A stretch of 64,000 nt of DNA from a virus (Duplodnaviria; Caudoviricetes), in IMG/VR virus record IMGVR_UViG_3300020450_001133; one strand, written 5' to 3'. How positions within the stretch are numbered: position 1 is the first letter of the stretch; each line of letters begins with the position of its first letter. Position numbers and translations under genes: made by a program. Under the pieces are notes generated by a model, which searched no databases, had not been told where the DNA came from, and worked only from the letters and a program-made list of their open reading frames with translations. Positions 30,007 through 57,036 of this stretch are shown piece by piece.

Positions 30007-30036
30007 ATTATACTACCATTTCCTTTGAATTGTCAA
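30007..30036 (-). promoter_or_regulatory. sigma70 promoter for uvsW embedded in 3' end of the TonB gene; leaderless spacing
   Basis: TTGACA-N18-TATAAT-acagt-ATG(30001). Confidence 0.7.
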
Positions 30037-31728
30037 CATAATTTGTCTTCCACGATTGTTATAACCTGGAAGTACTTCTACTTCTTCATCTAAGATGTTG
30101 TCTATTGTTAATGCTAAGTCAACATCATTAGCAAAAGTTTTAATGTATCTAAAAGACAAGTTTTGCAAGTCCTCTAATTCTGCTCCGTCATATGGACCAG
30201 GTATTCTTTCAAAATTACCTCTATAGGTAATATCAAATTCATGACTACCAAAGGCTTGATTCCATTTAACAACACCAACATACTTAGGCACTCTTGCTTG
30301 TTCTGTATCTGTATATTTCAGTGTAAGCATAAAGTTACCAAACCATTGCGAGTATCTAATACCTAGTGTGTCGTATGCACCAGTATTGTAATACTTTGCA
30401 TTGTAGTATTCTGTTGTGGTTGTTGTAATTGCATTACCATCTTCATCATAAGTTACAGTTGTAACATCATTACTTCCACCTGGTGCATATTCTATTGCTT
30501 CTTCAAAGTCATATTTGAAAATACTTAACACACCAAATCCTATTTCGTAACCAACACCTTCTTCAGGCAATAAGTCTAGATTTGCATCAACCCAACTATC
30601 ACCATGTAATTCATAAAGTGTAGGTCTTCTATAACTGTTACCAACATTTAAAAAGAATGGACCACTTTCTAAACCAAATCTTAATGCGTTTTGGTCTTCA
30701 TTTCCAACTCTAAAACCAAAGTTGTATTTCATGGCAAAGTCGGCATTAATATTTAAGTATGCACCGTAATTGTCTCTGCTATGTTCTTCATTGTTTAGAC
30801 TTTGATACTTCTCATGACTTGCGTCTACACCATATGCGATTTGCAATTTGTTAGATAGGTTAGTTTGGTCACCAACTCTCAAATAGTCTGTGCTACTTTC
30901 GTTAGCATATGACATCCATTCGCCTGTGTAATAATCTGCTTTGTCATGTGTTCTACCCAATGTAAAATATTCATTGTTTAATGCAATATTATATTTTTCA
31001 CCATCTTGTTCACAATTATTAGACTGATTAAAACTAGAATCATAACAGTTGTCATAATCATAACTGTAATCAGTGTAGTCCATTGTTATCCTAAAATCTT
31101 GTACATCAAAATTTAACTTTGCGTTTCTATTTGTGTACCAGTCACTTTCAGTATTATCATTTCTTACACTATCTTGGTTTATTTCCATTGCAGTATATTG
31201 AAACCATTTTGCAGGTGCAACACTAACCATTTTATGATCCTGTGAACCTAAGATTGCAGTAACACCTTGTTCAATGTTATCTTTAATCAATATAGTACCA
31301 GCAATACTACCACTACCATACACAACACTATTAGCACCAGAAATAATTTTAACTTCTTGCCCTGTTGCTAGTTCATTACCAAAATCATACCATGCACTAC
31401 CAGGCAAGTTTGCTGGTATGCCGTTTTTGTAAACAGCGGTATGTACATTTTGTGCACCACGTTCGTTATATCCTTGGAAAGCACCATAACCACCAGCAGT
31501 CCATGTATGACCGGGTAGTAATGCTCTTATAAAGGAATTACCTTTTAGTGGGTCTGCTTTTATAGTTGTGCTTTGTTGTCCCACTACCACAACTTCTTCT
31601 ATCTCCTCTGCCTGTGCTTTTGGACTTAAACATACTGCTACTGAGAACAATATCATCCATACAAAAGCCGCATACATAGGAGAAAAATTGATATGGAAGT
31701 TCCAATCAATCTTACTTCTATTACTCAT
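30013..31728 (-). CDS. TonB-dependent outer-membrane receptor, BtuB-like (571 aa)
   Basis: Signal peptide ending AQA; TonB box EEVVVVG; plug RGAQNVHTAVYKNG...SVVYGSGSIAGTI; C-terminus NILDEEVEVLPGYNNRGRQIMLTIQRKW. Confidence 0.85.
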   Translation of the reverse strand: MSNRSKIDWNFHINFSPMYAAFVWMILFSVAVCLSPKAQAEEIEEVVVVGQQSTTIKADPLKGNSFIRALLPGHTWTAGGYGAFQGYNERGAQNVHTAVYKNGIPANLPGSAWYDFGNELATGQEVKIISGANSVVYGSGSIAGTILIKDNIEQGVTAILGSQDHKMVSVAPAKWFQYTAMEINQDSVRNDNTESDWYTNRNAKLNFDVQDFRITMDYTDYSYDYDNCYDSSFNQSNNCEQDGEKYNIALNNEYFTLGRTHDKADYYTGEWMSYANESSTDYLRVGDQTNLSNKLQIAYGVDASHEKYQSLNNEEHSRDNYGAYLNINADFAMKYNFGFRVGNEDQNALRFGLESGPFFLNVGNSYRRPTLYELHGDSWVDANLDLLPEEGVGYEIGFGVLSIFKYDFEEAIEYAPGGSNDVTTVTYDEDGNAITTTTTEYYNAKYYNTGAYDTLGIRYSQWFGNFMLTLKYTDTEQARVPKYVGVVKWNQAFGSHEFDITYRGNFERIPGPYDGAELEDLQNLSFRYIKTFANDVDLALTIDNILDEEVEVLPGYNNRGRQIMLTIQRKW

Positions 31729-31757
31729 TCTGTCTCCAGGTTATTAGTTCTATTATA

Positions 31758-31785
31758 ATTATACGTCTTATTGTGGAAAAGTCAA
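31758..31785 (-). promoter_or_regulatory. sigma70 promoter for TonB receptor
   Basis: TTGACT-N16-TATAAT; SD GGAG before ATG 31728. Confidence 0.7.
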
Positions 31786-31796
31786 GTTAAAAATGT

Positions 31797-31829
31797 AATA
31801 AAGTGACGCCCGGAAGAACTCCGGGCGTC
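31797..31829 (-). terminator. intrinsic terminator
   Basis: GACGCCCGGA-gttct-TCCGGGCGTC followed by ACTTTATT. Confidence 0.8.
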
Positions 31830-31832
31830 TAA

Positions 31833-31882
31833 GGTGCTCTCTTGGGGGATGACTAACGTTTGAGCACCAGGGAACCGTTAGC
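31833..31882 (-). ncRNA. candidate H-type pseudoknot RNA element
   Basis: GCTAACG/CGTTAGT and GGTGCTC/GAGCACC crossing 7-bp stems. Confidence 0.45.
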
Positions 31883-31896
31883 AATATATATTTATT

Positions 31897-32925
31897 TTAT
31901 ATTGCACCCTTCATGCAAGTTGTTCTGGCTAATGACTGCCAATTTTTAGGCTCCATCTTCTTAAGGTCTGAAATCTTAAGAACCATACGCAAACTAACTT
32001 CACGAAGTCTATCTGCGTTATCAAGCATGAAGTCGATTACTTCTTTTTCGCCTTCTTTACCGAACTTGTATTCTTCAAGCATACCGTCCCTGACAATTTG
32101 CTTGATTCGGATAAATTTATCCTTAATACTGTTCATTGTAAGATCCAAGTAGTGGCACCTAGACATAAGTGCTTCTAAGTGATCCTTAATCTTCTTACTA
32201 CGAACGTTTTCAAAATCAACGTTAGTAATAAAGATACAACCACCTTTAAACTCAAACCTATCAGGTATACCTTCTCTACGAAGTGCTTGGGACTCTGACT
32301 TCCAAGTAATGTATCTTTTCTTACCTGAATCAAGTGTAGCCTTAAGCATGTTCAAACATACTTCATCAAACAACACACTATCACAGTCATCAAATACTAA
32401 TATGTTACCAGGTGCAGAGTTGTTAAACAATGTCTGGAACAAACCAATTGGTGTTACAGAACCTTTTACAACTTCAGTCCTTGCAGGTTTACCAGCAACC
32501 TGAGTAAGCATGTCGTATTCTTCAAGAACAGTTTCAACACCAAACGACTTACCAACTCCTGGAGGGCCACTTACAATCATACCCCTTACAGTACCTTCTG
32601 CTACTGCATGAGTCATTCTATCAAGAATATCAAATCTTTCTTTGATTCTCTCAATAGCATCTTTTTCACTCTCTTCTTCTTTTGGAGTGTTGTCGATTTT
32701 AGCCTGCTCGGCGTATATTGCCGGAGTAACATATTCAAGGTCCTTAGTAGGATCTTCAATTAGCACTCGGATTTTATCGAACTTATCACCAAGAACTTCA
32801 CTTCCATTTACAGTAATGAAAGCACCTTTCTTGCCAATGTTTAAAGGTTTCAATACAGGGAAAACCATGTTTTCAATGGTATTCTTTCTGTAAGTACCGT
32901 GTTTTATTTTTACAAAGTTAGTCAT
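31897..32925 (-). CDS. AAA+ family ATPase (342 aa)
   Basis: GPPGVGKS, LVFDDCD, SRCHYL; start moved to MTNFVK using SD GGGAG. Confidence 0.8.
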   Translation of the reverse strand: MTNFVKIKHGTYRKNTIENMVFPVLKPLNIGKKGAFITVNGSEVLGDKFDKIRVLIEDPTKDLEYVTPAIYAEQAKIDNTPKEEESEKDAIERIKERFDILDRMTHAVAEGTVRGMIVSGPPGVGKSFGVETVLEEYDMLTQVAGKPARTEVVKGSVTPIGLFQTLFNNSAPGNILVFDDCDSVLFDEVCLNMLKATLDSGKKRYITWKSESQALRREGIPDRFEFKGGCIFITNVDFENVRSKKIKDHLEALMSRCHYLDLTMNSIKDKFIRIKQIVRDGMLEEYKFGKEGEKEVIDFMLDNADRLREVSLRMVLKISDLKKMEPKNWQSLARTTCMKGAI

Positions 32926-32958
32926 CTTTACTCCCGTTTTGTTTAACTTATACATACT

Positions 32959-32986
32959 ATTATACTTCTTTAGCGAGTAAAGTCAA
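32959..32986 (-). promoter_or_regulatory. sigma70 promoter
   Basis: AGG-TTGACT-N16-TATAAT. Confidence 0.7.
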
Positions 32987-33015
32987 CCTTTTTGCCACTT
33001 TTTTTGGTAATTTTT

Positions 33016-33555
33016 TTAAGATTTTTTGATATCTAGCATGAAAAAGCAGGTTTGTAAGCATTTTGCCTGCCATTTTGCATCATCTACAGCACTATGTAAG
33101 TCCTCTTGAATGCCTTTTCTGGGGTCAACTTCCATCATACTGAATACAGTTCTACTGTCTCTGATTTGCCAATATGCCCAATTTGTGTGGGTATTAAGCA
33201 TTTTATATAGATTCTCAATAATGACCATATCAAATTGTGGGCCTTGACACCAAATTTGGTCACAACCTACTAGCCACTTATTAAGTGATTTTGTGAATTC
33301 TGTTAGTTTAGTTCTGCCTTCTTCTGCAAAGGCAATTTCCTGAATATGCTTTGGTTGTTTTGCCCACCATTGCATTGTGCCATCATCTATATCCCTAGAC
33401 AATGCTGTTTGCTCATCAATGTCTAATTTCATATCAATGAAGGAATGTGGCTCTTCATTTGTGTAAGGATCGAACTTTACACCACCCACACTCAAGATAA
33501 CTGCTTCAGGCGATGTTGCCAAAGTCTCAATATCTATCATTGCGTGAGTGGTCAT
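33016..33555 (-). CDS. dexA: DEDD 3'-5' exonuclease (DexA/Rv2179c-like)
   Basis: MIDIETL, WCQGPQFD, RDSRT, HSAVDDA. Confidence 0.85.
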   Translation of the reverse strand: MTTHAMIDIETLATSPEAVILSVGGVKFDPYTNEEPHSFIDMKLDIDEQTALSRDIDDGTMQWWAKQPKHIQEIAFAEEGRTKLTEFTKSLNKWLVGCDQIWCQGPQFDMVIIENLYKMLNTHTNWAYWQIRDSRTVFSMMEVDPRKGIQEDLHSAVDDAKWQAKCLQTCFFMLDIKKS

Positions 33556-33564
33556 AAGTATTCC

Positions 33565-33729
33565 TTAATTTGTTATTGATACGTCATACATACCTGCAAA
33601 AACAAGTTTTGCTTCTTCAAGTGTGTATTGTCTTTCATTCCAAGCAGAACGTTCTCTACAATTCATGTCATACCAGACTGTAAAGTTTTGCTCATAACTT
33701 ATGCTTTCATCGTATTCAAATACTTCCAT
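33565..33729 (-). CDS. small hypothetical protein, 54 aa (not in ORF track)
   Basis: MEVFEYDESISYEQNFTVWYDMNCRERSAWNERQYTLEEAKLVFAGMYDVSITN; SD AGGAG; consensus promoter upstream. Confidence 0.8.
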   Translation of the reverse strand: MEVFEYDESISYEQNFTVWYDMNCRERSAWNERQYTLEEAKLVFAGMYDVSITN

Positions 33730-33758
33730 ATTTTACTCCTAAATTAAAAAGTAAATAT

Positions 33759-33787
33759 ATTATACCGAAATTTGTGGTGAATGTCAA
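33759..33787 (-). promoter_or_regulatory. perfect consensus sigma70 promoter
   Basis: AGG-TTGACA-N17-TATAAT. Confidence 0.9.
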
Positions 33788-33792
33788 CCTAA

Positions 33793-34218
33793 TTATGCAT
33801 TAAGTTTTTCGAAGTATTTTTCGTAAAGACGTTTTTCCCAATAATATGCTTCACGTTCCCAAGGTTGTTTACTGTATGGAACTTTAGTATAATCACCTTT
33901 TTTCCATCTTGCAGTAGTTGGAGATAATTCACCTGAAATAAATTGTTTAGCATGTATCAATTCATGTGTTAGATTTATAAGCATTTCTTCTCTAGTAAAT
34001 TTTATACCTTCACTAGTTCTGGCAATTTCAATATCAATTGTATCTCTATCTCCCCAACAAAATCCACCTGCTTGTTCCTCTAAAACATTGTGTATCCACA
34101 CATCAATATTTACAGGTCTACGGATATTTGTAGGCAGTATATTCTCTACCAAAAGTTCAGATATATTTTCTACTAATTTTTTATTTTTGAATTGCCCATA
34201 AAGATTAACATGGACCAT
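33793..34218 (-). CDS. HExxH zinc metallopeptidase-like protein (141 aa)
   Basis: LTHELIHAKQ...PWEREAY; start at MVHVN with SD AGGAG; promoter TTGACA-N16-TAATAT at 34280. Confidence 0.7.
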   Translation of the reverse strand: MVHVNLYGQFKNKKLVENISELLVENILPTNIRRPVNIDVWIHNVLEEQAGGFCWGDRDTIDIEIARTSEGIKFTREEMLINLTHELIHAKQFISGELSPTTARWKKGDYTKVPYSKQPWEREAYYWEKRLYEKYFEKLNA

Positions 34219-34310
34219 ATCTTGGCTCCTACACCAGTTTTCAATATCGCTTATATTAGCATCATTAGACGTATTGTCAACCTTTTTGTAAGTGCTTGAT
34301 TTGGAAGAAG

Positions 34311-34772
34311 TTAATCTATTACTATGTCTTCCATTCCGGCTGTTCTTAGCCTTGTGATGTGTCCTATTTGCCATTGCTTTGTATCTAAGCCTTTCATAAT
34401 GCCCAAATACTTGTTTCTAAGTAGAGCATATTGGTTGCAAAGATGTGTTAGGTTGATAACACTATCTTCACTGTCAACGAATTTTTCTGCGTCTCTACTA
34501 CTTAACTGTCTGTTATAGGATTCGAGATATTTTCTGAACGTTGTACTTCTCTCCTTACGAAGTTCAATATTCAGATGTTCTAGTATTGCTTCAATCTCTT
34601 GAAGTTGATTGAAACGATGTTCTGTTATGCCAGGTAGGGCGGCACTGGATTTCTCCAGGCTACCCTTTATACTGCATTCGTATTTGGCTTGTTGTAGTTC
34701 ATTTTCGTAATGCTCAATAGATTGAACTATCTTACTTAAATCTTCTACAACTGAATTATACCAACCTGCCAT
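34311..34772 (-). CDS. uvsY: recombination mediator UvsY-like
   Basis: Helical protein with YLESYNRQLSSRDAEKFVD motif, in uvsX operon; start at MAGWY (TAATG overlap). Confidence 0.75.
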   Translation of the reverse strand: MAGWYNSVVEDLSKIVQSIEHYENELQQAKYECSIKGSLEKSSAALPGITEHRFNQLQEIEAILEHLNIELRKERSTTFRKYLESYNRQLSSRDAEKFVDSEDSVINLTHLCNQYALLRNKYLGIMKGLDTKQWQIGHITRLRTAGMEDIVID

Positions 34773-35005
34773 TAGTAATCCCAATCATCGTCTTCTTCAT
34801 CTTCCTCGCCAAAACCATAGTGACCAATCACTGCGGCTTTTAAGGCAGAATCAAAAGTATGTGCTTCATCTTCCACTCCGGCCATATCACATTCTTCATC
34901 AAATACGCGAACTAAATGTTCTGCGGCTTCGACTCTGTCTTTCTTAGCGATGTAGTTTTTCAGAGTGTCCCAAGTACTAATAAGTAATTGTAAATCAGGG
35001 TTCAT
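34772..35005 (-). CDS. hypothetical protein (77 aa)
   Basis: ORF track, between uvsX and uvsY. Confidence 0.75.
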   Translation of the reverse strand: MNPDLQLLISTWDTLKNYIAKKDRVEAAEHLVRVFDEECDMAGVEDEAHTFDSALKAAVIGHYGFGEEDEEDDDWDY

Positions 35006-35007
35006 TA

Positions 35008-36105: not shown

Positions 36106-36116
36106 GATGTATCTCC

Positions 36117-37106: not shown

Positions 37107-37120
37107 AATAATATCTCCTA

Positions 37121-37187: not shown

Positions 37188-37192
37188 GTCAA
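37164..37192 (-). promoter_or_regulatory. sigma70 promoter for gp32-uvsX-uvsY
   Basis: AAGG-TTGACA-N17-TAAACT. Confidence 0.8.
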
Positions 37193-43240: not shown

Positions 43241-43390
43241 TTATTTCTTAGACTTTCGTTTTTTCTTTAATTTGCGTGTAGGATGTCCAAACATTTGGTC
43301 AAATCTGTGATTTCTAGCATCAATATAGTCCTGTGGTTTGTCATAAACCTTTTTAGGAGTCTTAAATTCTATGATATCACTTATTTTCAT
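43241..43390 (-). CDS. small basic protein, 49 aa (not in ORF track)
   Basis: MKISDIIEFKTPKKVYDKPQDYIDARNHRFDQMFGHPTRKLKKKRKSKK; ATGA overlap with diiron gene stop. Confidence 0.7.
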   Translation of the reverse strand: MKISDIIEFKTPKKVYDKPQDYIDARNHRFDQMFGHPTRKLKKKRKSKK

Positions 43391-44457
43391 TTCAATGGTT
43401 TACTTAATTCTTCCCAACTTGTTTCATAATCACTATCGCCGTCAGCATATCCCATAACACCTAGTTTTTCATACTCTGGTACTAGTTCATCATGCAACAA
43501 TCCTATTTTTTTAAGGTTAGGCATTATCCTACTAAACAATACATCTTGAAATTGTGTTTGAAAAATGTTTTCTTTTTGGTATTCGTCAGTATAATCTAAA
43601 TCCATGCCATACTTTTCCCAAACATCATATGCTCTTAGTCTATTTCTACTCACAGTACAGGCTTCTAAGGCAAATTGTGCCCTATCCAACTTATCTTCTT
43701 CACTTAAAGTAGTTACAAACTCCGTAAGATAGTTAATACCAAACGTAACATGCCTTGCTTCGTCTCTTATAATGTATTCTAGCATTTGTTTATACACAGG
43801 ATCATTAGTTGCTTCTTTGGCGGCGTTAAAGGCGGCTAATGCCAAGCCTTCAATCACTACTTGCATACCAATAAACTTCAAATCCCAACGAGGATCTGTT
43901 AATATTTTGTCTAACAAACCTTTTAATGCTCTACCTATGGGCCAACTGCGTTTTAATCTTTGTTGTAAGTATTTGTTGAATGCTTCAACGTGCCTTGCTT
44001 CGTCAAATGTTTGACTTGCGGCATATAGTTTTGCATTATATGTTGGCGCACAACTGGCTAACTGTGATGCAACCAATAATGCTCCTTGCTCTCCATGTAA
44101 AAATTGACTTGTTGCCCAACTGTTAAGGTCTTTGAAGAATTCTAATCTTGTTTTTTTGTCAAAAGTTTTAAAAACTTTATGGTTGTCCCATTGATTGTTT
44201 TCAAAATCAAATTCTTCATCACTGATACCTACAAAGTTAGGTGTCCAATCTACATCAACCTCTACATTCCAATTTAATTGTTTGCCTAATTCATATAATT
44301 TTTTTATTCTGTTGTCTTGTACTGTATAGTCCCAATTAAATGAACCAGTTAAAGGTGTTTGAAAAATCTCTACAACATCGGTAGGATCTAAATTAGCCGG
44401 AACATCATCGTCAAACTCGATTACGTCCCTTGGAGTTTTTGTATATTCTATTTTCAT
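43387..44457 (-). CDS. ferritin-like diiron enzyme (AurF-type oxygenase/desaturase fold)
   Basis: GEQGAL...DEARH and IEGLAL...DEARH diiron ligand pairs; late promoter 44464-44471. Confidence 0.8.
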   Translation of the reverse strand: MKIEYTKTPRDVIEFDDDVPANLDPTDVVEIFQTPLTGSFNWDYTVQDNRIKKLYELGKQLNWNVEVDVDWTPNFVGISDEEFDFENNQWDNHKVFKTFDKKTRLEFFKDLNSWATSQFLHGEQGALLVASQLASCAPTYNAKLYAASQTFDEARHVEAFNKYLQQRLKRSWPIGRALKGLLDKILTDPRWDLKFIGMQVVIEGLALAAFNAAKEATNDPVYKQMLEYIIRDEARHVTFGINYLTEFVTTLSEEDKLDRAQFALEACTVSRNRLRAYDVWEKYGMDLDYTDEYQKENIFQTQFQDVLFSRIMPNLKKIGLLHDELVPEYEKLGVMGYADGDSDYETSWEELSKPLK

Positions 44458-44469
44458 TTTTTATATTTA

Positions 44470-44922
44470 TTATGACCTTTTTGTCTTTCTGCCTGTTTGC
44501 TTTCGGAAAATCTGATCCTCTGTAATAACTTTAAAATGTAAACCTTTTGCCTTGCACCAGGCTTGAGCGGCTTCCCACTTTACAGCATTTACTTGTATGG
44601 ATGCTTTATCATATTTGTCTCTTGCTTTTTCTTGTAGTGTTTGTGCTTTGGGTTTGATTTCAATTAAATCAACTCGTGTCTTTCCTGTTTTATCTGTGTA
44701 TTGTACCATAAAGTCAGGAACATAGTTTGTAATTTTTCCTGTAAACGGATGTCTATAAGGTATTTTTACATTTTCACTTGCCCATTTAGTAATGTTAGGA
44801 TGACTATCACAGAATCTCATGAATGCCATTTCCCAACTGCTACGAGCAAATGGTTGTTTTTGTCCTACGAATTTTTCTGGATTTTGGACGGAGTAGTTGC
44901 CTTGTGAATATCTACTAGACAT
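44470..44922 (-). CDS. gp4: head completion nuclease (T4 gp4/TnsA-like)
   Basis: RSSWE...WASE...IPY...YVPDF...IEIKP...KWEAAQAWC...FKVITE. Confidence 0.88.
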   Translation of the reverse strand: MSSRYSQGNYSVQNPEKFVGQKQPFARSSWEMAFMRFCDSHPNITKWASENVKIPYRHPFTGKITNYVPDFMVQYTDKTGKTRVDLIEIKPKAQTLQEKARDKYDKASIQVNAVKWEAAQAWCKAKGLHFKVITEDQIFRKQTGRKTKRS

Positions 44923-50171: not shown

Positions 50172-50200
50172 AATTAATCTCCTTTGAATTATTATACGAA

Positions 50201-50208
50201 TATTTATC
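50201..50208 (-). promoter_or_regulatory. late promoter for sheath with SD leader
   Basis: GATAAATA, 29-nt leader with AGGAG. Confidence 0.7.
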
Positions 50209-50308
50209 TAAAATACTAGAAAATAGGTATTATACAAACCGGGGGTACAGTGGTTTTTTAGGTTTTGGATAAATATAGAAATTTTTTAATATTTAAGGGG
50301 ATTTGGTA

Positions 50309-51013: not shown

Positions 51014-51021
51014 TGTTATCC

Positions 51022-51840
51022 TTATCTATATATAAACGGGTCTTCTTCTCTTATTTGATTTATTCTTTCTTTTAATAATCTTTCATCTCTTAAATGATTT
51101 TTATAAACTTCAGTCTTGTCTATTAAAAAGTAAATGAATCCACTTGTAAAACTTTTTTTGTTTAGTTTTTTACGAACATTGTCGCTTGTACTATCTGTAC
51201 TTATACTCGAGGTTACCAGTTGTACATTTTTTTCTGCACATATATCTTTTACTTGTTCTAGTGTAACTGTTTGTTCAAACGGATTATAAAACTGGTCCTT
51301 GAACCAACTTTCCCTTTGTTTTTCATCTTTAATATATTGTGTCATGCCTGTAAATATATCATACCAAGTATGTGTTGGAAATTGGTCAAACCATTCAAAC
51401 ATTGTATCTCTACTTTCTTTGTGATACAATCCTATAAAAGAATATTTGTTTGCACAATCAATTGCTTTACTGATTGTTTGTTTCATTGTGAAATCTGGTA
51501 TGTGATGTAATGCACCAATGCTAACAGTTAAATCTGCTGTTCTATCATTTGTCATTATATCTTGTTCAAAAAAATCTGCTGTAAAAACTTCATCAGAAGT
51601 TTGTTTTGCATAGTCTATATTTCCAGGTACAATGTCTAAACCTGTTACAGATAAACTAGGATAATTTTGTGCAATTCTGTTACTTAACCACCCGTTACCA
51701 CAACCAAGTTCTAAAACATTAGAAATGTCTTTGGTATCTAAAAGTGTTTCTAAAATGGGTAAAGGTAACTCTTCTGAGTTTACTTTTTCTTGGGGAGTGT
51801 TAAATTGTATTTCCGAATAGTATTGTTTTACAAGATCCAT
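51022..51840 (-). CDS. class I SAM-dependent methyltransferase
   Basis: VLELGCGNG, GLD, GALHH; promoter TTGACA-N17-TACATT 5 nt before ATG. Confidence 0.85.
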   Translation of the reverse strand: MDLVKQYYSEIQFNTPQEKVNSEELPLPILETLLDTKDISNVLELGCGNGWLSNRIAQNYPSLSVTGLDIVPGNIDYAKQTSDEVFTADFFEQDIMTNDRTADLTVSIGALHHIPDFTMKQTISKAIDCANKYSFIGLYHKESRDTMFEWFDQFPTHTWYDIFTGMTQYIKDEKQRESWFKDQFYNPFEQTVTLEQVKDICAEKNVQLVTSSISTDSTSDNVRKKLNKKSFTSGFIYFLIDKTEVYKNHLRDERLLKERINQIREEDPFIYR

Positions 51841-51845
51841 AATGT

Positions 51846-51874
51846 AATGTACTATAAATTAATTTGTTTGTCAA
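51846..51874 (-). promoter_or_regulatory. sigma70 promoter, leaderless spacing
   Basis: TTGACA-N17-TACATT-acatt-ATG(51840). Confidence 0.65.
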
Positions 51875-51880
51875 TCAAAA

Positions 51881-52648
51881 TTAACCAATAATGAATCCTA
51901 AAGGTGCATTGCCTTCTTCCATATTGTGTAAACCTGCAATCAATTGTTCCATTTCAGTTAATGCTTCTGATTTGAGAGCATCACCGTTCAATGTTGTAGC
52001 ACCGCCAGGCCCAGGAAGTCCTCCAGGGAATTTGCTTCTTGCTTCACCTAACATCATTTTACTTTGTGCTAGTGCGTATGCACTTAACCATTCAGCGGCA
52101 TAAACATCTTTTATTAAAACACTTTCTGGAATAAAGTTATTAACACCTATTGCAATATCTTCTTCATGATTAACATTTCTTAAAATAGTTAGTTCTTTTG
52201 TATTTCTATTAAATGTAAAGTTGTATTCACTACCAAATATACGACCAATAGTTTCTTTGTATTGTGCAAATGCATCAAATACTGCAAGTCCACCAATTTG
52301 TCCTGCTTGTAGCATATACATATTATTGAATGCAACATCAAATGGATCAAAATTAGTACCGCCACCACTGTTGGTACCAATACCACGTCTATATAATCTT
52401 CTAACGTCTATAACTTCATCAGGTAAAGTATATTTTGTTACACCTGCTTGAGTTTGTATGAATATAACTGCTTCTTCAACACTTCCTGAACTCAACTGCC
52501 TATACTTTTGTATAGATTTATTGATTGCAATATCGTAATGGTCTCTGTCTAATTCAACATCTACCATGCCATCAGCAAGACGTAATTGAATCTCTTCAAT
52601 TATTTCGTTTCTACTGCCATATCCTATCTGGTCTATCTTAGTTGCCAT
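51881..52648 (-). CDS. gp13: neck protein (gp13-like head-tail adaptor)
   Basis: LADGMVDVEL, YTLPDEVIDVRRLYR, LGEARSKF..LPGPGG..TLNG; start moved to MATKI by late promoter at 52654-52661. Confidence 0.8.
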   Translation of the reverse strand: MATKIDQIGYGSRNEIIEEIQLRLADGMVDVELDRDHYDIAINKSIQKYRQLSSGSVEEAVIFIQTQAGVTKYTLPDEVIDVRRLYRRGIGTNSGGGTNFDPFDVAFNNMYMLQAGQIGGLAVFDAFAQYKETIGRIFGSEYNFTFNRNTKELTILRNVNHEEDIAIGVNNFIPESVLIKDVYAAEWLSAYALAQSKMMLGEARSKFPGGLPGPGGATTLNGDALKSEALTEMEQLIAGLHNMEEGNAPLGFIIG

Positions 52649-52705
52649 ACTACTATTTATCACTTTTTGGGTTTTAACCAAAAAATATATGTATGGTTTG
52701 AAGGT

Positions 52706-53866
52706 TTAAAATACTTGTAAAAGTATGATTGAATCGTTAATTCTGCCTGTTAATTTAGTAGGCGTTGTTTTTACTTCGTCAAATGCTTTTGCAAATTTTG
52801 TTTTTGCTCTGCCAGTCCAGTTGTTTATTTGTTCTGCAGGCTTTCTTAAAGTTTTTTGCACACTAGTTTCTTCGTTAAAGTCTTGTATAGTAGTTCCTTT
52901 AACCATTAGACCTGCACCTTGTCTTTGTAATCCACGTGGGTCTTTGTCTTTTGCGTGGTAAACTCCTACTTTACGGGTCTTTGTATTGTACACCCATAGT
53001 TCATTGGCGTAGACGACGTCTGTGGGCGATATAGATGCTATTCCTAATGCTCCATCATTAAGTTGAAACTTTAACTTTTTGATAATTACATCTTTACTTC
53101 TTGCTCTCGGTTTACGTTGTTTTCTACTTGCTTTACCTGTAAGTATAATTGCATCACAGGCGGCATTTATTTTTTCAAAGAAAGCAACATAGTCTTTCTT
53201 CATTTTCTTATCCATAAAACTGTATGCTTCTTTTAATTGCTCACATGTTCCTGCTAAATTTTCTAATGCTTCTGCATGTATGCCTTCGTATTGTTCTTTT
53301 ACTATTTTAGCATGTGCAGGTTTTATAAGTCCACCACCATAAACTTTCATATCTTTTTCTGGATCAAACTTTTTAAGGTCAAACTTTTCTTTCTCAATAA
53401 ATTTATCTAGCATGTCGTCCCAATCACCACAAAGTTCTGTTACTTGTTCTAGCATTCTTTCTTGAATAGAAATTTTTGGTTTTGCATCTTTTTTCTTTTC
53501 TTGTTGTACTTCAACAACTTCTTTTCCAGTTTCTAAAAGAGCCTCTTTTCTACTGTCATAAAACTTTGCAAAACATTCTGGCATGTATCCTAACTTATCC
53601 CAACACCAAGCATACTTGGCACTACTGCTAAATCGCCAATCAGGATTTTTCAATATTATTTTTATTTCTTCTTTATCCCAACCACTTGCATCTTTTACCC
53701 ACTTACGATATTTGGCTACTGCATCTTTTGTTGAGATTTCAGAATGCACAAAATAGTCAACTGACCTGAATGCTTTCTCTTGTTGCTCAGGATCAGTTAT
53801 ACCCCTGTACTGTTTCCAGTCAGGTTCTTTTGTTACATATACTGTTCTTTGTTTTCGTTTTGCCAT
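52706..53866 (-). CDS. early hypothetical protein (386 aa)
   Basis: ORF track; LWVYNTKTRK and VKGTTI...QKTLRKP motifs; consensus promoter upstream. Confidence 0.75.
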   Translation of the reverse strand: MAKRKQRTVYVTKEPDWKQYRGITDPEQQEKAFRSVDYFVHSEISTKDAVAKYRKWVKDASGWDKEEIKIILKNPDWRFSSSAKYAWCWDKLGYMPECFAKFYDSRKEALLETGKEVVEVQQEKKKDAKPKISIQERMLEQVTELCGDWDDMLDKFIEKEKFDLKKFDPEKDMKVYGGGLIKPAHAKIVKEQYEGIHAEALENLAGTCEQLKEAYSFMDKKMKKDYVAFFEKINAACDAIILTGKASRKQRKPRARSKDVIIKKLKFQLNDGALGIASISPTDVVYANELWVYNTKTRKVGVYHAKDKDPRGLQRQGAGLMVKGTTIQDFNEETSVQKTLRKPAEQINNWTGRAKTKFAKAFDEVKTTPTKLTGRINDSIILLQVF

Positions 53867-53898
53867 CTTTTGTTTTTCACCAAAATATAGTGCTAGTT

Positions 53899-53927
53899 AG
53901 TATAACTTCAAAAAATTTTTATGTCAA
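53899..53927 (-). promoter_or_regulatory. sigma70 promoter
   Basis: TTGACA-N17-TATACT. Confidence 0.8.
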
Positions 53928-53957
53928 TTGGTAAATTTTGAACTAAAAGGAAGGTTT

Positions 53958-54380
53958 TTACAGTTTTTTGGCTGTTAAACCAATTGTTGCAGATGCTACA
54001 CGATTTTCGCCATCAAATACTTTGCAGTCATAAAAAATATGATTTAATTTACGTCTGGTAAGTTTGGCTTCAAGTCTTAATCTTGTTCCAGGGAATACAG
54101 GAAATCTAAATTTACATTTGTCTACACTTGTTACAAAAGTGACATAGTCCTCATGTTTGAGTTCGCCTTGTTCCTTTCCTGCTAAATGAAGTGCATGGAG
54201 ACCAGCACATTGATTCATACCTTCTATTATGTAAACACCGGGCCAAATTTTTACATGTGGGAAGTGTCCTTCTAATACTGGATGTGCATTATGTACCATA
54301 TATGTTGCTTCAATTTCTTCATCGCTAATAATACGGTGTTCGTCAATTAATGCTATCGGATGTCTGTGTGGTAGTTCCAT
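53958..54380 (-). CDS. fabZ: 3-hydroxyacyl-ACP dehydratase (FabZ/FabA hot-dog fold)
   Basis: LPHRHP, GHFP..KIWPGVYIIEGMNQ, FRFPVFPG. Confidence 0.85.
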   Translation of the reverse strand: MELPHRHPIALIDEHRIISDEEIEATYMVHNAHPVLEGHFPHVKIWPGVYIIEGMNQCAGLHALHLAGKEQGELKHEDYVTFVTSVDKCKFRFPVFPGTRLRLEAKLTRRKLNHIFYDCKVFDGENRVASATIGLTAKKL

Positions 54381-54405
54381 ATATGCTATTTACTTTGCTA
54401 TGGAT

Positions 54406-56217
54406 TTATTTTGTTAAAAGTTTGGTTATGTACCAATTTATTTTTTGTATTTCTATATTGTTAATCTCATCAATAGTTTTTGGATTGTATTCATCAAAGT
54501 CTTCTCGTTTGATGCCATTCATTGTATAAGGCATGCCAAAAGATTTATTAAGCAAATTGTGTGTTAATTTTCCAAATTTTAAAAGTCTATTATTTAAGTT
54601 GCCTGAATATTTCATTGCATCTAGAAGTCCAACACCATTTCTGTTTTTGTATATAAACTCATTTGAAAAAATATCTTTAACTTGTTGAGGTATAGGTTGT
54701 CCATTCATGTAATGGTCTGTAGGCTCATACCCATAGTCTTTCCAATTCCTTTGAAACTCACTGTCTGTTCTTGCATCGTATCCTTCTGGTCTAATACCTA
54801 ATGCTCTCATGTTAGTTCCTATCATTGGGTTTTGGTCTGATACTAAAAAGTTAGCCATTTCTTTTAAACTTTCTTTTGTGTCGCTTGGTAGTCCTGCAAT
54901 AAAGCCACTAGCCATATCAACATCTTTCCAAACATCTGCTTTTAGTTCTCTCATATATTCGAACTGCAACATAGGATTCAAGCCTTTACCTATATCTTTT
55001 GCACTATCAGGATTTGTTGTTTCTACTCCAAACTGAACATGGACTATCCCAGCATCTGCAATCACTTGTGCTTGACTTGGTGTTTTGTTTCTATTTGCAT
55101 ACAATAAATCTAATCTAATATAACAAGCAAACTTTAATTTAAAAGGTAATGATTTAGACATCTCCATAAAGTCAACCATTTTTTGATGGTCATCATTAAA
55201 TGTGTCATCAACAATCCAATAACATTCAACACCAAATTTTTCATAATTATGAATTAACTCTTGTTTAATTAAATCCATATCTCTTATTGCTTCACCTTTT
55301 TCTTTTCCGTTTAAAGCAAAAGAACAAAATTTACATTTAAAAATACAACCTCTACTAACTTCTATAGATAATACTTCGCCTGGATATACTAAGTCATCAT
55401 CATGCCATTTCATTGTTGAATGTTTTACATCTTGTCTGCTTAATACATCTTCTTTGTATGGCATGCCTTCAAAATTTACAGGTAAATCTAAAGGATCTCC
55501 ACCTTTTAGTTCGTTTAAAATTTCAGGTGCTGTTTCTTCTCCGTATCCTATATTAACAATGTCTACGTTTCTATATTTAGAACCTCTATTTGTAAATGCT
55601 CCACCCTTAATAAATTTAACATTAGAATTTTTTTGTTTTACATAATCAACAAACAAATCGTCTATCTCTTCACCGTGCGGTAGAAAGCCTTGATAAAAAT
55701 CTTCTTTAAAAGCATTTTCATCTATGTAATGTTTATTTTTGATTTCAGCACCATAAAACGGATCTAGATTCCAACTAGACGGCTTAATGTTCATTCTATT
55801 TGGAATTTTAAGTAGGAAAGTGTTACTAATACCAACTGCTAAAGTATTGTCTCCTATATATTTGTCTACAATAAGTCTTAATGTTGCTATGTCCAATTGT
55901 GTAACAAAGTCAACTACTTGAACTGTAAATCCACTTTCTCTACATTCGTGGGCAAGTTTATAGGCACCTAATGCTCTATTGCCTACAAAAGAAAATTTAT
56001 CAAACCAACCACGTTGCCATAAATGTTGATTCATTTTAACAGGATCATCTTTTATGTCTTTAAAATGTGAAGAAAGACTTGCCCTGTTATCTAATAGGTA
56101 TGTGCCATAACCTGCGTGTTCATGCATACCCCAAAAAACGTTATCTGTAAATATAACGAATTCAACAGGAGTATGTTCCACTTCAATAAATCTGTGGGGG
56201 TTAATGATACCTTTCAT
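54406..56217 (-). CDS. B12-binding-domain radical SAM enzyme (603 aa)
   Basis: EVSRGCIFKCKFC (CxxxCxxC); N-terminal GAYKLA...VQVVD...VGIS...GG...GYGE cobalamin-domain pattern; DDTF; QFGVET. Confidence 0.85.
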   Translation of the reverse strand: MKGIINPHRFIEVEHTPVEFVIFTDNVFWGMHEHAGYGTYLLDNRASLSSHFKDIKDDPVKMNQHLWQRGWFDKFSFVGNRALGAYKLAHECRESGFTVQVVDFVTQLDIATLRLIVDKYIGDNTLAVGISNTFLLKIPNRMNIKPSSWNLDPFYGAEIKNKHYIDENAFKEDFYQGFLPHGEEIDDLFVDYVKQKNSNVKFIKGGAFTNRGSKYRNVDIVNIGYGEETAPEILNELKGGDPLDLPVNFEGMPYKEDVLSRQDVKHSTMKWHDDDLVYPGEVLSIEVSRGCIFKCKFCSFALNGKEKGEAIRDMDLIKQELIHNYEKFGVECYWIVDDTFNDDHQKMVDFMEMSKSLPFKLKFACYIRLDLLYANRNKTPSQAQVIADAGIVHVQFGVETTNPDSAKDIGKGLNPMLQFEYMRELKADVWKDVDMASGFIAGLPSDTKESLKEMANFLVSDQNPMIGTNMRALGIRPEGYDARTDSEFQRNWKDYGYEPTDHYMNGQPIPQQVKDIFSNEFIYKNRNGVGLLDAMKYSGNLNNRLLKFGKLTHNLLNKSFGMPYTMNGIKREDFDEYNPKTIDEINNIEIQKINWYITKLLTK

Positions 56218-56236
56218 AATGTAGTATTTATTAATT

Positions 56237-56313
56237 TGGTCCGCCCGGCAGGACTCGAACCTGCAACCTACGGTTTAGAAGACCGTTGTTCTATCCAGTT
56301 GAACTACGGGCGG
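56237..56313 (-). tRNA. tRNA-Arg(TCT)
   Basis: Cloverleaf CCGCCCG/CGGGCGG, anticodon loop CTTCTAA, TTCGAGT T-loop, encoded CCA. Confidence 0.95.
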
Positions 56314-56319
56314 TAAATT

Positions 56320-57036
56320 TTAATCTACAAATGCCCTTTCTAGAACAAAGTCTCCTGGTTCACCCAAGTTTCCTTCTTGGAAACCTAAGTTTTCAAAATA
56401 GTCCCTGCACTCATAATTCATGTCTGGACCTCCACACACCATAACTCTGTCAGTTTCTTTGTTAAAGCCACCGTTAGTAAAGTTATCAATGTGTTCCCAA
56501 AAACGACCTTTACGCACATAATCTTCCTGTGTGCAAGTGTCGTAATATGTTAAAGGAAATGTATTGCACATTTCTTGTATAACATCTGTGTAAGTGTGTT
56601 CTGCATGTGTTCTTGTGGTATGACAAAGTATAACACTTTTAAACTTTTCGTATGTTGCTGGGTCTCTTATAATACTCATAAAAGGTGCTATACCTGTTCC
56701 TGTTGACAGCAAATATAAATTATCTGCTTGAGTTACGTTATCAATCGTTAAAGTGCCTGTACACTTAGGGTTTACTAAAACTTCGTCTCCAACTTTTAAA
56801 TGCTGTAAACGACTTGTAAGAGGTCCGTCTGGTACCTTTATGCTTAAGAACTCTAACTCATCTTCATAGTTTGCACTAGCAATACTGTATGCTCTTAATA
56901 AAGGTTTGTCATTTACCTTTAATCCAATCATAGCAAACTCTCCGTTTGCAAAACGAAAAGATTGATTTCTTGTGGTTTTAAAACTGAATGTTTTATCTGT
57001 CCAGTGATGAACCCATGTAACTGTTTCTATGTTCAA
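56320..57036 (-). CDS. fpr: ferredoxin(flavodoxin)-NADP+ reductase
   Basis: VHHWTD, RAYSIAS, GPLTSRL, TGTGIAPF, VCG, ERAFV. Confidence 0.93.
   Translation of the reverse strand: MNIETVTWVHHWTDKTFSFKTTRNQSFRFANGEFAMIGLKVNDKPLLRAYSIASANYEDELEFLSIKVPDGPLTSRLQHLKVGDEVLVNPKCTGTLTIDNVTQADNLYLLSTGTGIAPFMSIIRDPATYEKFKSVILCHTTRTHAEHTYTDVIQEMCNTFPLTYYDTCTQEDYVRKGRFWEHIDNFTNGGFNKETDRVMVCGGPDMNYECRDYFENLGFQEGNLGEPGDFVLERAFVD

What the first reader, a model, noticed from the sequence alone, without database searches (positions are those of the whole stretch)
30013..57036. Dispersed cobalamin/radical-SAM support set: BtuB-like receptor, B12 radical SAM enzyme, FNR, MtnN/APRT
Seen: a compact TonB receptor with BtuB-like plug (RG...HT.V..NG, YGS..IAG) and C-terminus, a B12-domain radical SAM gene and an fpr gene adjacent to it. 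Established: B12 radical SAM enzymes need cobalamin, a flavodoxin/FNR reducing system and 5'-dA removal. Inference: the phage supplies cofactor import, electrons and product clean-up for its own radical methylation chemistry on an unknown target (DNA base, tRNA, lipid or virion glycan). Alternatively the receptor mediates superinfection exclusion or iron uptake.
Basis: partly seen in the sequence, partly recalled or inferred. Interest (0 to 1): 0.7.

Follow-up and report, generated by a model that had tools for sequence, protein, structure and literature searches.

The report
Phage B12-type receptor and lipid enzyme cassette
An uncultured marine giant phage carries its own outer-membrane receptor of the vitamin B12 (BtuB) type and, 23 kb away, a conserved three-gene cassette (reductase, radical SAM enzyme, FabZ dehydratase) that most likely modifies fatty-acyl chains, but the two are inherited independently and nothing shows that they work together.

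Summary
APRT and the MtnN-like nucleosidase lie at 26222-27323, outside the stated coordinates.

**Receptor (30013-31728).** It is a real, compact TonB-dependent transporter under purifying selection.
- Its family occurs only in uncultured phages, in at least 459 IMG/VR stretches, almost always between an AAA ATPase gene and uvsW.
- By profile it is far closer to BtuB than to any other solved receptor.
- It keeps three of BtuB's five calcium-cage positions as invariant acidic residues.
- All three nearest cellular relatives that I tested sit behind cobalamin riboswitches next to btuFCD-like genes.
- The phage genes have no riboswitch (0 of 85 loci). The window's copy has a near-consensus sigma70 promoter.

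**Radical SAM enzyme.** It has the class B (B12-domain) architecture. Cobalamin binding is unproven.
- Its constant partners are the Fpr-type reductase and a FabZ dehydratase, both found in all 21 orthologous loci that had room on both sides.
- Distant paralogues sit next to fatty-acid desaturase, KS, ACP and ACPS genes. The likely target is therefore an acyl chain.

**Linkage.** Receptor and cassette are distributed independently across phages. The "support set" is three separate modules with a plausible but unshown B12 link.

This scan has already noted BtuB-like receptors in other marine jumbo phage genomes (e1-5401475, e1-5363276).

The parts
30013..31728 (-). Compact BtuB-type TonB-dependent outer-membrane receptor (571 aa) of a phage-only family
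   Evidence: - Pfam Plug 28.3 bits.
- AF2 model pLDDT 85, with Foldseek TM 0.74 to BtuB 2gsk.
- Family profile against PDB: BtuB E 1.4e-19, next non-BtuB hit 1.5e-3.
- hhalign against BtuB-like proteins: E 1.5e-68 over 522 columns.
- dN/dS 0.06-0.18.
31758..31785 (-). Near-consensus sigma70-type promoter (TTGACT, 16 nt, TATAAT) in front of the receptor gene; no riboswitch
   Evidence: Read from the sequence. Rfam finds no cobalamin riboswitch in the window.
31805..31829 (-). GC-rich hairpin followed by a T-run: terminator-like element that ends the upstream AAA-ATPase gene
   Evidence: Read from the sequence.
26772..27323 (-). Adenine phosphoribosyltransferase
   Evidence: NCBIfam NF002636 scores 173.9 bits against a cut-off of 125. 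Pfam Pribosyltran also matches.
26222..26782 (-). Short (186 aa) MtnN-family nucleosidase; overlaps the APRT gene by 11 nt
   Evidence: - PNP_UDP_1 54.6 bits.
- NCBIfam nucleosidase PRK05634 87.5 bits, below its cut-off of 129.
- The MtnN models score 58-66 bits, below their cut-offs.
57504..57531 (-). Perfect sigma70 consensus promoter (TTGACA, 16 nt, TATAAT) ahead of tRNA-Ser, tRNA-Ala, orf85, fpr and tRNA-Arg
   Evidence: 12 of 12 positions match; sequence read.
57033..57290 (-). 85-aa acidic helical ORF of unknown family; overlaps the fpr start by 4 nt; an 82-aa gene is coupled in the same way in a relative
   Evidence: No family hit. It has a single Cys, so it is not a ferredoxin.
56320..57036 (-). 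Fpr-type ferredoxin/flavodoxin-NADP+ reductase
   Evidence: - FAD_binding_6 and NAD_binding_1 both score above their cut-offs.
- NF008178 scores 125.7 bits.
- RAYSIAS and GTGIAP motifs are present.
- It is 78-97% identical in orthologous cassettes.
56237..56313 (-). tRNA-Arg(TCT) between fpr and the radical SAM gene
54406..56217 (-). Class-B-type radical SAM enzyme (603 aa): N-terminal extension, Rossmann B12-like domain, radical SAM core and C-terminal helical domain. A late-type ATAAATA motif lies at 56225-56231.
   Evidence: - Radical_SAM 54.8 bits.
- CIFKCKFC at residues 291-298.
- AF2 pLDDT 87.6.
- Foldseek top hits are TsrM, OxsB, MgmA, AprD4 and TokK.
- PF02310 scores 17.8 bits, below its cut-off.
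- The family profile hits the N-terminal region (residues 79-136) of TokK at E 9e-8.
53958..54380 (-). FabZ-like 3-hydroxyacyl-ACP dehydratase (140 aa) with the catalytic His39 and Glu53; a TAAATA motif lies at 54387-54392
   Evidence: - FabA domain 67.8 bits.
- FabZ models 86-90 bits, just under their cut-offs.
- Sequence read.
- It follows the radical SAM gene(s) in 22 orthologous loci.

Best explanation
The interval holds three separately inherited phage modules, not one coordinated set.

**(1) Receptor.** An early gene driven by the host polymerase encodes a stripped-down BtuB-type outer-membrane receptor. Inserted into the infected cell's outer membrane and energised by the host TonB system, it most likely binds and imports a corrinoid (cobalamin or a related cobamide). 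It has no B12 riboswitch, so uptake would no longer be repressed by B12.

**(2) Acyl-chain cassette.** The cassette is fpr, then one to three radical SAM genes, then fabZ. It sits between tail-sheath-stabiliser and neck genes.
- The Fpr-type reductase passes NADPH electrons, through a host flavodoxin or ferredoxin, to the radical SAM iron-sulfur cluster. If cobalamin is used, the same route could reduce it.
- FabZ makes or consumes the enoyl or 3-hydroxyacyl-ACP intermediate.
- The class-B-type radical SAM enzyme modifies the acyl chain, most simply by C-methylation.

**(3) Salvage pair.** APRT and an MtnN-family nucleosidase recycle adenine from nucleosides. Possible substrates include the 5'-deoxyadenosine and SAH left by radical SAM and methyl-transfer reactions.

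**What is shown and what is inferred.** Shown: gene identities, folds, synteny, selection, the cobalamin context of the receptor's nearest cellular relatives, and the lipid-gene context of the radical SAM family. Inferred: the ligand, cobalamin use by the radical SAM enzyme, the chemistry, and any flow of imported B12 to this enzyme.
For: **Receptor**
- A profile of 19 family members hits E. coli BtuB nearly full length (E 1.4e-19). The best non-BtuB chain, PhuR, scores 1.5e-3.
- Profile-profile alignment to BtuB-like proteins gives probability 100% and E 1.5e-68.
- Family-invariant E194, D196 and Y225-D226 align with BtuB's calcium-cage D193 and D195 and with Y229-D230. The nearly invariant S187 aligns with D179, which is Ser in 7 of the 10 nearest cellular relatives.
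- All 10 nearest cellular representatives tested have TIGR01779 (TonB-B12) as their best NCBIfam match.
- Three of three examined lie behind a cobalamin riboswitch (96-119 bits) and next to BtuF/C/D-like genes.
- dN/dS is 0.06-0.18.
- The AAA-ATPase gene lies upstream in 108 of 145 viral loci with room, and uvsW lies downstream in 120 of 150.
- The promoter is TTGACT-16-TATAAT, with no riboswitch.

**Cassette**
- Of the 24 orthologous viral loci (L093-L115 and L172), 23 have fpr upstream and 22 have fabZ downstream. All 21 loci with room on both sides have both.
- The radical SAM fold matches the cobalamin-dependent TsrM, OxsB, MgmA, TokK and CysS.
- The SxT/L-like and GG motifs of the B12 domain are invariant or nearly so in the family.
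- FabZ keeps its catalytic His and Glu.
- A 33%-identical homologue sits among KS, a FabA-like dehydratase, ACP, ACPS and two desaturases.
- In other jumbo phages, paralogues lie 48 nt, 1.1 kb and 5 kb from FA_desaturase genes.

**Separateness**
- Searches show independent distribution of the receptor and the cassette.

**Salvage pair**
- APRT passes its curated cut-off.
- The pair lies in a conserved replication and nucleotide-metabolism block after uvsW.
Against: **Receptor**
- It matches no NCBIfam BtuB model, and matches Pfam only through the Plug domain.
- Two of the five calcium-cage positions are not acidic.
- The loops are shorter than in BtuB.
- No riboswitch was found in 85 phage loci.
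- No inner-membrane or TonB partner was found near the gene or in receptor-bearing contigs.
- By Foldseek E-value, siderophore receptors rank nearly as high as BtuB.

**Radical SAM enzyme**
- Pfam B12-binding scores 17.8 bits, under its cut-off of 32.1.
- The best PDB sequence hit is AprD4, which on my recollection has this domain but no cobalamin.
- No ACP, KS or desaturase gene lies in this window.
- KS and FabA families are absent from four other jumbo phages that carry radical SAM paralogues.

**Expression**
- fpr is driven by an early-type promoter, whereas the radical SAM and fabZ genes carry late-type motifs. Co-expression is therefore not assured.
Confidence: 0.55

Rival explanations
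1. The receptor, the B12 radical SAM enzyme, FNR and MtnN/APRT form one functional support set. The phage imports B12 specifically to load its own cobalamin-dependent radical SAM enzyme, powers it with Fpr, and clears 5'-deoxyadenosine with the nucleosidase.
For: - The receptor is BtuB-type, and its nearest cellular relatives are under cobalamin riboswitch control.
- The radical SAM enzyme has the class B fold.
- fpr is a conserved neighbour.
- In the two largest receptor-bearing phage contigs, the only B12-domain-like matches found by the two families searched (PF02310 and NrdJ) lie in long ORFs that also match the radical SAM profile. Their RNR matches stay far below the class II (NrdJ) cut-off.
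- The distribution may be nested: each receptor-bearing genome examined has a class-B-like radical SAM gene, although the converse does not hold.
Against: - The genes are 23-30 kb apart, in different modules and with different promoter types.
- The receptor keeps its replication-module slot in phages that lack the cassette within 32-64 kb upstream.
- Radical SAM phages that are at least 94% complete lack the receptor.
- The radical SAM family is so common in jumbo phages (at least 510 viral stretches) that co-presence carries little weight.
- Cobalamin use by the enzyme is unproven.
- APRT with a nucleosidase is equally well explained as nucleotide salvage.
Confidence: 0.3
2. The receptor does not import nutrients for phage chemistry. 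It either alters the cell surface, as superinfection exclusion or as a decoy for competing phages and colicin-like toxins that use BtuB-type receptors, or it imports another scarce nutrient such as haem, iron or a metal.
For: - It is early expressed from a strong promoter.
- No partner uptake genes were found.
- BtuB is a classic phage and colicin receptor (BF23, E colicins; established knowledge, and see PMC10644984).
- Loop insertions differ between lineages.
- Haem and siderophore receptors are structurally close.
Against: - The residues invariant across 33-98% identity are those that align with BtuB's calcium-cage and ligand loops L2 and L3. This points to a retained binding site, not merely a surface plug.
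- An intact TonB-box-like motif is conserved.
- Purifying selection acts along the whole protein.
- The nearest cellular relatives are riboswitch-controlled btuB genes.
Confidence: 0.2
3. The radical SAM enzyme is a cobalamin-independent member of the B12-domain-like group, as AprD4 is. It performs a non-methylating radical reaction on an acyl intermediate, such as dehydration, rearrangement, C-C coupling or cyclisation, so it has no need for imported B12.
For: - AprD4 is the best sequence match in PDB (E 2.6e-4 for the single sequence, 1.2e-8 for the profile).
- Pfam B12-binding is sub-threshold.
- There is no DxHxxG motif.
- Pairing with a dehydratase fits chemistry on hydroxy or enoyl intermediates.
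Against: - By fold, the top matches are cobalamin-bound enzymes.
- The profile also hits the N-terminal region of TokK, residues 79-136.
- The GG and SxT/L-like motifs are conserved.
- Many 31-35%-identical homologues carry PF02310 above threshold.
Confidence: 0.3

Closest known systems
E. coli/Salmonella BtuB, the TonB-dependent cobalamin outer-membrane transporter (PDB 1NQE-1NQH, 2GSK; TIGR01779)
   Same: - Plug-in-barrel fold, TM 0.74.
- Best and nearly full-length profile match.
- TonB-box-like motif and C-terminal aromatic residue.
- Acidic residues at cage positions D193, D195 and D230, and the Tyr-Asp of loop L3.
   Different: - About 60 residues shorter, with trimmed loops.
- Only about 17-21% identical.
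- Below every curated BtuB model cut-off.
- D179 and D241 equivalents are not acidic.
- A family-specific disulfide-like Cys228/Cys239 pair is present.
- No cobalamin riboswitch and no btuFCD neighbours.
- Encoded by a phage in its replication module.
SusC-like TonB-dependent receptor reported as an auxiliary gene in marine megaphage Mar_Mega_1 (PMC9723777)
   Same: A TonB-dependent receptor encoded by a very large marine phage.
   Different: That one is described as SusC-like and linked to carbohydrate uptake. This family is BtuB-type, compact, and fixed between an AAA ATPase gene and uvsW.
Class B (cobalamin-dependent) radical SAM enzymes: TsrM, OxsB, TokK, CysS, MgmA; and the cobalamin-free relative AprD4
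   Same: An N-terminal Rossmann-like domain followed by a CxxxCxxC radical SAM core. These are the top fold matches.
   Different: - No curated family is reached; the best is PhpK at 61 bits against a cut-off of 600.
- It has an extra roughly 75-residue N-terminal extension and an insertion at about residues 135-185.
- The nearest Atlas clusters are all viral.
- It is partnered with Fpr and FabZ.
E. coli Fpr with flavodoxin, the physiological reducing system for radical SAM enzymes and for cob(II)alamin in MetH (established knowledge)
   Same: The same two-domain FNR with FAD and NADP motifs, placed next to a radical SAM gene.
   Different: No flavodoxin or ferredoxin gene was found in the window. 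The protein scores 125.7 bits against an equivalog cut-off of 390.
Phage lipid auxiliary genes: cyanophage fatty-acid desaturases; fabF and desaturase genes in freshwater pelagimyophages (PMC7029224)
   Same: Phage genes that act on host acyl chains. Paralogues of this radical SAM enzyme sit beside such desaturases.
   Different: An Fpr / radical SAM / FabZ cassette did not turn up in the papers searched.

Membership tests
TonB-dependent transporter superfamily | N-terminal plug domain (PF07715) | tested here: met
   28.3 bits against a cut-off of 23.9. The plug is seen in the AF2 model.
TonB-dependent transporter superfamily | Beta-barrel that encloses the plug | tested here: met
   The AF2 model has pLDDT 85. 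There are 214 Foldseek matches at E<=0.001, and all 50 listed are TonB-dependent transporters, with TM up to 0.74. The barrel HMM PF00593 itself was not hit. I did not count the strands exactly.
TonB-dependent transporter superfamily | Signal peptide, TonB box and C-terminal aromatic residue | tested here: met
   Read from the sequence...SPKAQA/EE, IEEVVVVG, and a terminal W. The TonB-box-like motif is conserved in the family. No signal-peptide predictor was run.
BtuB (cobalamin receptor; TIGR01779 / NF007926) | Score at or above the curated model cut-off | tested here: not met
   No NCBIfam hit at E<=0.01.
BtuB (cobalamin receptor; TIGR01779 / NF007926) | Closer to BtuB than to other receptor classes | tested here: met
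   - PDB profile search: BtuB 1.4e-19, best non-BtuB 1.5e-3.
- hhalign E 1.5e-68.
- All 10 nearest cellular proteins tested have TonB-B12 as best hit.
- Three of three of these lie behind cobalamin riboswitches.
BtuB (cobalamin receptor; TIGR01779 / NF007926) | Five-aspartate calcium cage beside the cobalamin site (D179, D193, D195, D230, D241) | tested here: inconclusive
   Three of five positions align with invariant acidic residues (E194, D196, D226). The other two are Ser and Gln, and these positions also vary in the riboswitch-linked cellular relatives. The alignment is sequence-based only.
BtuB (cobalamin receptor; TIGR01779 / NF007926) | Cobalamin riboswitch and/or btuFCD context | tested here: not met
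   None in the window and none in 85 phage loci. The neighbours are an AAA ATPase gene and uvsW.
BtuB (cobalamin receptor; TIGR01779 / NF007926) | Binds and transports cobalamin | not testable with these tools
   No cobalamin ligand is offered for docking. This needs binding and complementation assays.
Class B cobalamin-dependent radical SAM enzymes | CxxxCxxC radical SAM core | tested here: met
   C291, C295 and C298 are invariant in the family. PF04055 scores 54.8 bits.
Class B cobalamin-dependent radical SAM enzymes | N-terminal cobalamin-binding (Rossmann) domain | tested here: inconclusive
   - The fold matches TsrM, OxsB and TokK.
- The profile hits the N-terminal region of TokK, residues 79-136.
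- PF02310 scores only 17.8 bits against a cut-off of 32.1.
- AprD4 shows that the domain can exist without cobalamin.
Class B cobalamin-dependent radical SAM enzymes | Bound cobalamin required for activity | not testable with these tools
   Needs purified protein.
Fpr-type ferredoxin/flavodoxin-NADP+ reductase | FAD_binding_6 and NAD_binding_1 domains with RxYS and GTGxAP motifs | tested here: met
   31.9 and 38.9 bits, both above their cut-offs. Motifs read. The equivalog NF008178 cut-off is not reached: 125.7 against 390.
FabZ (3-hydroxyacyl-ACP dehydratase) | Hotdog FabA/FabZ domain with the catalytic His and Glu | tested here: met
   PF07977 scores 67.8 bits. GHFP His39 and IIEG Glu53 are present. 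The NCBIfam FabZ cut-offs are narrowly missed: 89.9 against 113.
MtnN (MTA/SAH/5'-dA nucleosidase) | Score at or above the curated MtnN model cut-offs | tested here: not met
   The best hit is nucleosidase PRK05634 at 87.5 against 129. The MtnN models score 58-66 bits, below their cut-offs. Family-level kinship only.
Adenine phosphoribosyltransferase | Score at or above the curated cut-off | tested here: met
   NF002636 scores 173.9 against 125.

The most novel reading that the evidence does not exclude
A widespread clade of marine jumbo phages installs its own riboswitch-free BtuB early in infection. This overrides the host's B12 repression of uptake, and the scavenged corrinoid feeds phage cobalamin-dependent radical SAM enzymes that tailor fatty-acyl chains. 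Viral infection would then create a distinct B12 demand and a new lipid chemistry in the ocean.
Probability: 0.25. Interest if true: 0.8.

Novelty: new variant of a known kind. Interest (0 to 1): 0.6.

Why it matters
Vitamin B12 is scarce in seawater and limits many marine microbes. A phage-only family of BtuB-type receptors occurs in hundreds of viral contigs, and the window's copy is expressed without the usual B12 feedback switch. Infected cells may therefore take up B12 differently from healthy ones.

The Fpr / radical SAM / FabZ cassette, and the wider viral radical SAM family that sits next to desaturase, KS and ACP genes, point to phage-directed modification of acyl chains. That chemistry has not been described for phages in the papers I searched.

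Both ideas can be tested directly with standard expression, binding, complementation and lipid mass-spectrometry experiments.

Tried and rejected
**Searches for relatives**
- GenBank phages hold neither the receptor nor the radical SAM enzyme. With distant family members as queries, the only hits were Salmonella btuB in bacterial records filed among phages.
- A single-sequence PDB search for the receptor found nothing at E<=1. Only the family profile reached BtuB.

**Regulation and partners of the receptor**
- I looked for a cobalamin riboswitch in 80 viral receptor loci and 5 metagenome loci and found none. The earlier scan note that related phages keep a B12 switch was therefore not reproduced for this family.
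- No small polytopic membrane gene lies within 2-2.5 kb of the receptor in 160 loci; the only candidates were antisense artefacts.
- PF20221 (DUF6580) gave no match in 29 viral contigs, but its controls were silent, so this result is uninformative.
- TonB_C gave no match in 3 receptor-bearing contigs.

**Limits of access**
- The window's own genome is not held, and the 330-kb relative could not be searched. The DUF6580-like, FabF and ACP genes that other first readers noted elsewhere in this genome therefore could not be checked.

**Other enzyme families**
- Class II RNR is not supported in receptor-bearing contigs: the matches fall far below the cut-off.
- KS and FabA families are absent from five other jumbo phage contigs.

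**The 85-aa ORF**
- It has no family or Atlas match. I considered an ACP-like reading of its LGVDDLS stretch and rejected it as unsupported.

**Structure-based checks**

Full report
**What the window is.** The window has about 34% G+C and almost all its genes are on the minus strand. It encodes a T4-type large terminase, gp32, a UvsX-like RecA, a tail sheath and tube, and gp15. The terminase is 56% identical to that of Pseudomonas jumbo phage PA5oct. Near-identical genes lie on seawater metagenome contigs of up to 330 kb. This is an uncultured marine jumbo myophage, and its whole genome is not held.

**Check of the observation.** All five named genes are real.
- The receptor is ORF 30013-31728.
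- The radical SAM gene is 54406-56217.
- The Fpr-like reductase is 56320-57036. A tRNA-Arg gene separates it from the radical SAM gene.
- APRT (26772-27323, above its curated cut-off) and a short MtnN-family nucleosidase (26222-26782, below the cut-offs) lie outside the stated interval.
- The finding omits a FabZ gene (53958-54380) directly after the radical SAM gene. It has the catalytic His and Glu.

**The receptor is a BtuB-type transporter.**
- It has a signal-like N-terminus, IEEVVVVG as a TonB-box-like motif, and a terminal Trp.
- Pfam detects only the plug, at 28.3 bits.
- An AF2 model built on 19 family members (pLDDT 85, pTM 0.81) is a plug in a barrel. Foldseek places BtuB among the top hits (TM 0.74 to 2gsk), but siderophore receptors score nearly as well, so the fold alone does not give specificity.

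Sequence profiles do give specificity.
- The family profile hits E. coli BtuB nearly full length at E 1.4e-19. Bacteroides BtuB1 follows at 5e-5, and the best non-BtuB chain, PhuR, at 1.5e-3.
- An exhaustive search of 1.84 billion representatives finds 26 family representatives at E<1e-30. After a gap come cellular receptors of mostly 600-700 aa.
- I tested ten of these, and all have TonB-B12 as their best NCBIfam match, though below its cut-off.
- I fetched three of them. Each is directly preceded by a cobalamin riboswitch (96.5, 109.3 and 118.7 bits) and flanked by BtuF/C/D-like genes.

**Calcium-cage alignment.** Profile-profile alignment of the phage family to these proteins, headed by Salmonella BtuB, gives probability 100% and E 1.5e-68 over 522 columns. 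BtuB has two calcium sites in a cage of five aspartates beside the cobalamin pocket, and loops L2 and L3 contact the ligand (PMC7360065). The residue numbers of the five aspartates come from my own memory; counting along the alignment confirms Asp at those positions.

| BtuB position | Phage residue aligned | Conservation in phage family |
|---|---|---|
| D193 | E194 | invariant |
| D195 | D196 | invariant |
| Y229-D230 | Y225-D226 | D226 invariant, Y225 nearly so |
| D179 | S187 | nearly invariant; Ser in 7 of the 10 cellular relatives |
| D241 | Q235 | not conserved |

The positions the phage family holds fixed are thus the BtuB-specific ligand-site positions.

**The receptor family is phage-only and fixed in place.**
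- No cultured phage in GenBank has it.
- IMG/VR holds at least 459 stretches encoding a relative (274 and 185). Members down to about 33% identity all lie in phage contexts.
- In 160 loci, the AAA ATPase gene is upstream in 108 of 145 with room, and uvsW is downstream in 120 of 150.
- dN/dS against relatives is 0.06-0.18.
- In the window the gene follows a terminator-like hairpin and a TTGACT-16-TATAAT promoter.
- Rfam finds no cobalamin riboswitch in the window or in 85 phage loci.
- No membrane partner gene lies within 2-2.5 kb.
- TonB_C and DUF6580 were not found in receptor-bearing contigs. The DUF6580 controls were silent, so that result is uninformative.

**The radical SAM enzyme is class-B-like.**
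- It has CIFKCKFC at residues 291-298.
- It gives weak NCBIfam matches only to B12-type families: PhpK, the ladderane-lipid family, HpnJ and others.
- Many 31-35%-identical homologues carry PF02310 together with PF04055.
- The AF2 model (pLDDT 87.6) best matches the cobalamin enzymes TsrM, OxsB, MgmA, TokK and CysS. It also matches AprD4, which on my recollection lacks cobalamin.
- The family profile hits AprD4 at 1.2e-8 and the N-terminal region of TokK (residues 79-136) at 8.9e-8.
- Pfam B12-binding reaches only 17.8 bits on the N-terminal 280 residues.
- The GG motif and an SxT/L-like motif of the B12 domain are invariant or nearly so. There is no DxHxxG motif, which by established knowledge is usual for class B enzymes.
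- The nearest ESM Atlas clusters are all viral.

Cobalamin use is plausible but unproven.

**Its real partners are Fpr and FabZ, and the context is lipid.**
- Of the 24 orthologous viral loci (39-65% radical SAM identity, plus one at 31%), 23 have fpr upstream and 22 have fabZ downstream. All 21 loci with room on both sides have both. One to three tandem radical SAM genes lie between them.
- Fpr is 78-97% identical and FabZ 56-91%, while the radical SAM gene is far more divergent. The radical SAM slot therefore turns over.
- A 33%-identical homologue on a 271-kb contig lies among a FabF-like KS, a FabA/ApeP-like dehydratase, ACP, ACPS, two fatty-acid desaturases and a Rieske protein.
- In other jumbo phage genomes, paralogues lie 48 nt, 1.1 kb and 5 kb from FA_desaturase genes.
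- KS and FabA families are absent from those genomes.

**Promoters.** The cassette lies between gp15 and the neck genes.
- A perfect sigma70 promoter at 57504-57531 precedes tRNA-Ser, tRNA-Ala, an 85-aa ORF, fpr and tRNA-Arg.
- Late-type TAAATA motifs directly precede the radical SAM and fabZ start codons.

- Four large contigs carrying the radical SAM family, two of them at least 94% complete, have no receptor.
- Of 22 receptor contigs of 51 kb or more, none has an orthologous radical SAM gene. Four of these extend 32-64 kb upstream of the receptor, where the cassette would lie.
- In the other direction, the two largest receptor-bearing contigs each hold class-B-like radical SAM genes, with sub-threshold B12-domain matches inside long ORFs that also match the radical SAM profile. 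They hold no class II RNR. This nested pattern fits the B12-supply idea, but the sample is tiny and the radical SAM family is very common, with at least 510 viral stretches.
- APRT and the nucleosidase lie about 3 kb downstream of the receptor. In relatives the block runs on to thyX, primase and a DnaB-like helicase, so plain adenine salvage explains them equally well.

**Verdict.** The interval contains three modules:
- an early, riboswitch-free BtuB-type receptor, with about 0.65-0.7 probability that it carries a corrinoid;
- an Fpr / radical SAM / FabZ cassette, with about 0.6 probability that its target is an acyl chain and about 0.55 that it uses cobalamin;
- an adenine-salvage pair.

I put the chance that imported B12 actually feeds this enzyme at about 0.25-0.3.

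**Literature and earlier notes.**
- The papers I searched report a SusC-like receptor in a marine megaphage (PMC9723777) and lipid genes in pelagimyophages (PMC7029224). I found neither this receptor family nor this cassette described.
- Other reports of this scan describe BtuB-like receptors in other marine jumbo phage genomes. Their claim of a riboswitch in related phages was not reproduced for this family.

Noticed in passing
window 54406-57036; loci L093, L103, L109, L010: The number of radical SAM genes between fpr and fabZ varies from one to three among close relatives. Fpr stays 78-97% identical while the radical SAM genes are only 39-65% identical. The slot looks like a hotspot for paralogue gain, loss or diversification. 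In the window a tRNA-Arg gene occupies part of it.
   Followed up: partly
window 57302-57531: A perfect sigma70 consensus promoter (12 of 12) drives tRNA-Ser and tRNA-Ala, then an 85-aa acidic ORF that overlaps the fpr start by 4 nt. A relative has an 82-aa gene coupled in the same way. The small protein matches no family.
   Followed up: partly
window 43387-44457 and 44470-44922; loci L122, L123: An AurF-like or R2-like di-iron protein lies in the morphogenesis block. In relatives where it is 93-95% identical, a second, shorter radical SAM paralogue lies about 2 kb downstream. That gene is absent in the window, where a TnsA-like endonuclease gene sits beside the di-iron gene.
   Followed up: partly
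L008 and L009, 4997-6205: Relatives carry a 402-aa gene of the isocitrate lyase / PEP mutase family just upstream of the fpr cassette. It is absent from the window.
   Followed up: no
window 62047-63924 and 60577-61122: A CHASE2-domain class III nucleotide cyclase and a NUDIX hydrolase flank the gp15 region. Both are conserved next to the cassette in relatives (L008).
   Followed up: no
window 30013-31728, residues about 415-445; P0243: The receptor of this lineage has a Thr-rich insertion of about 25-30 residues in an extracellular loop. Most family members lack it, and one relative (658 aa) has much larger loop insertions. An invariant Cys228/Cys239 pair sits in the L3-equivalent loop.
   Followed up: partly
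window 51022-51840: A class I SAM methyltransferase, with weak best NCBIfam matches to BioC and cyclopropane-fatty-acid-synthase-like models, lies between the gp13-like neck gene and a dNMP kinase gene. A gene of similar size occupies the same place in L010.
   Followed up: no
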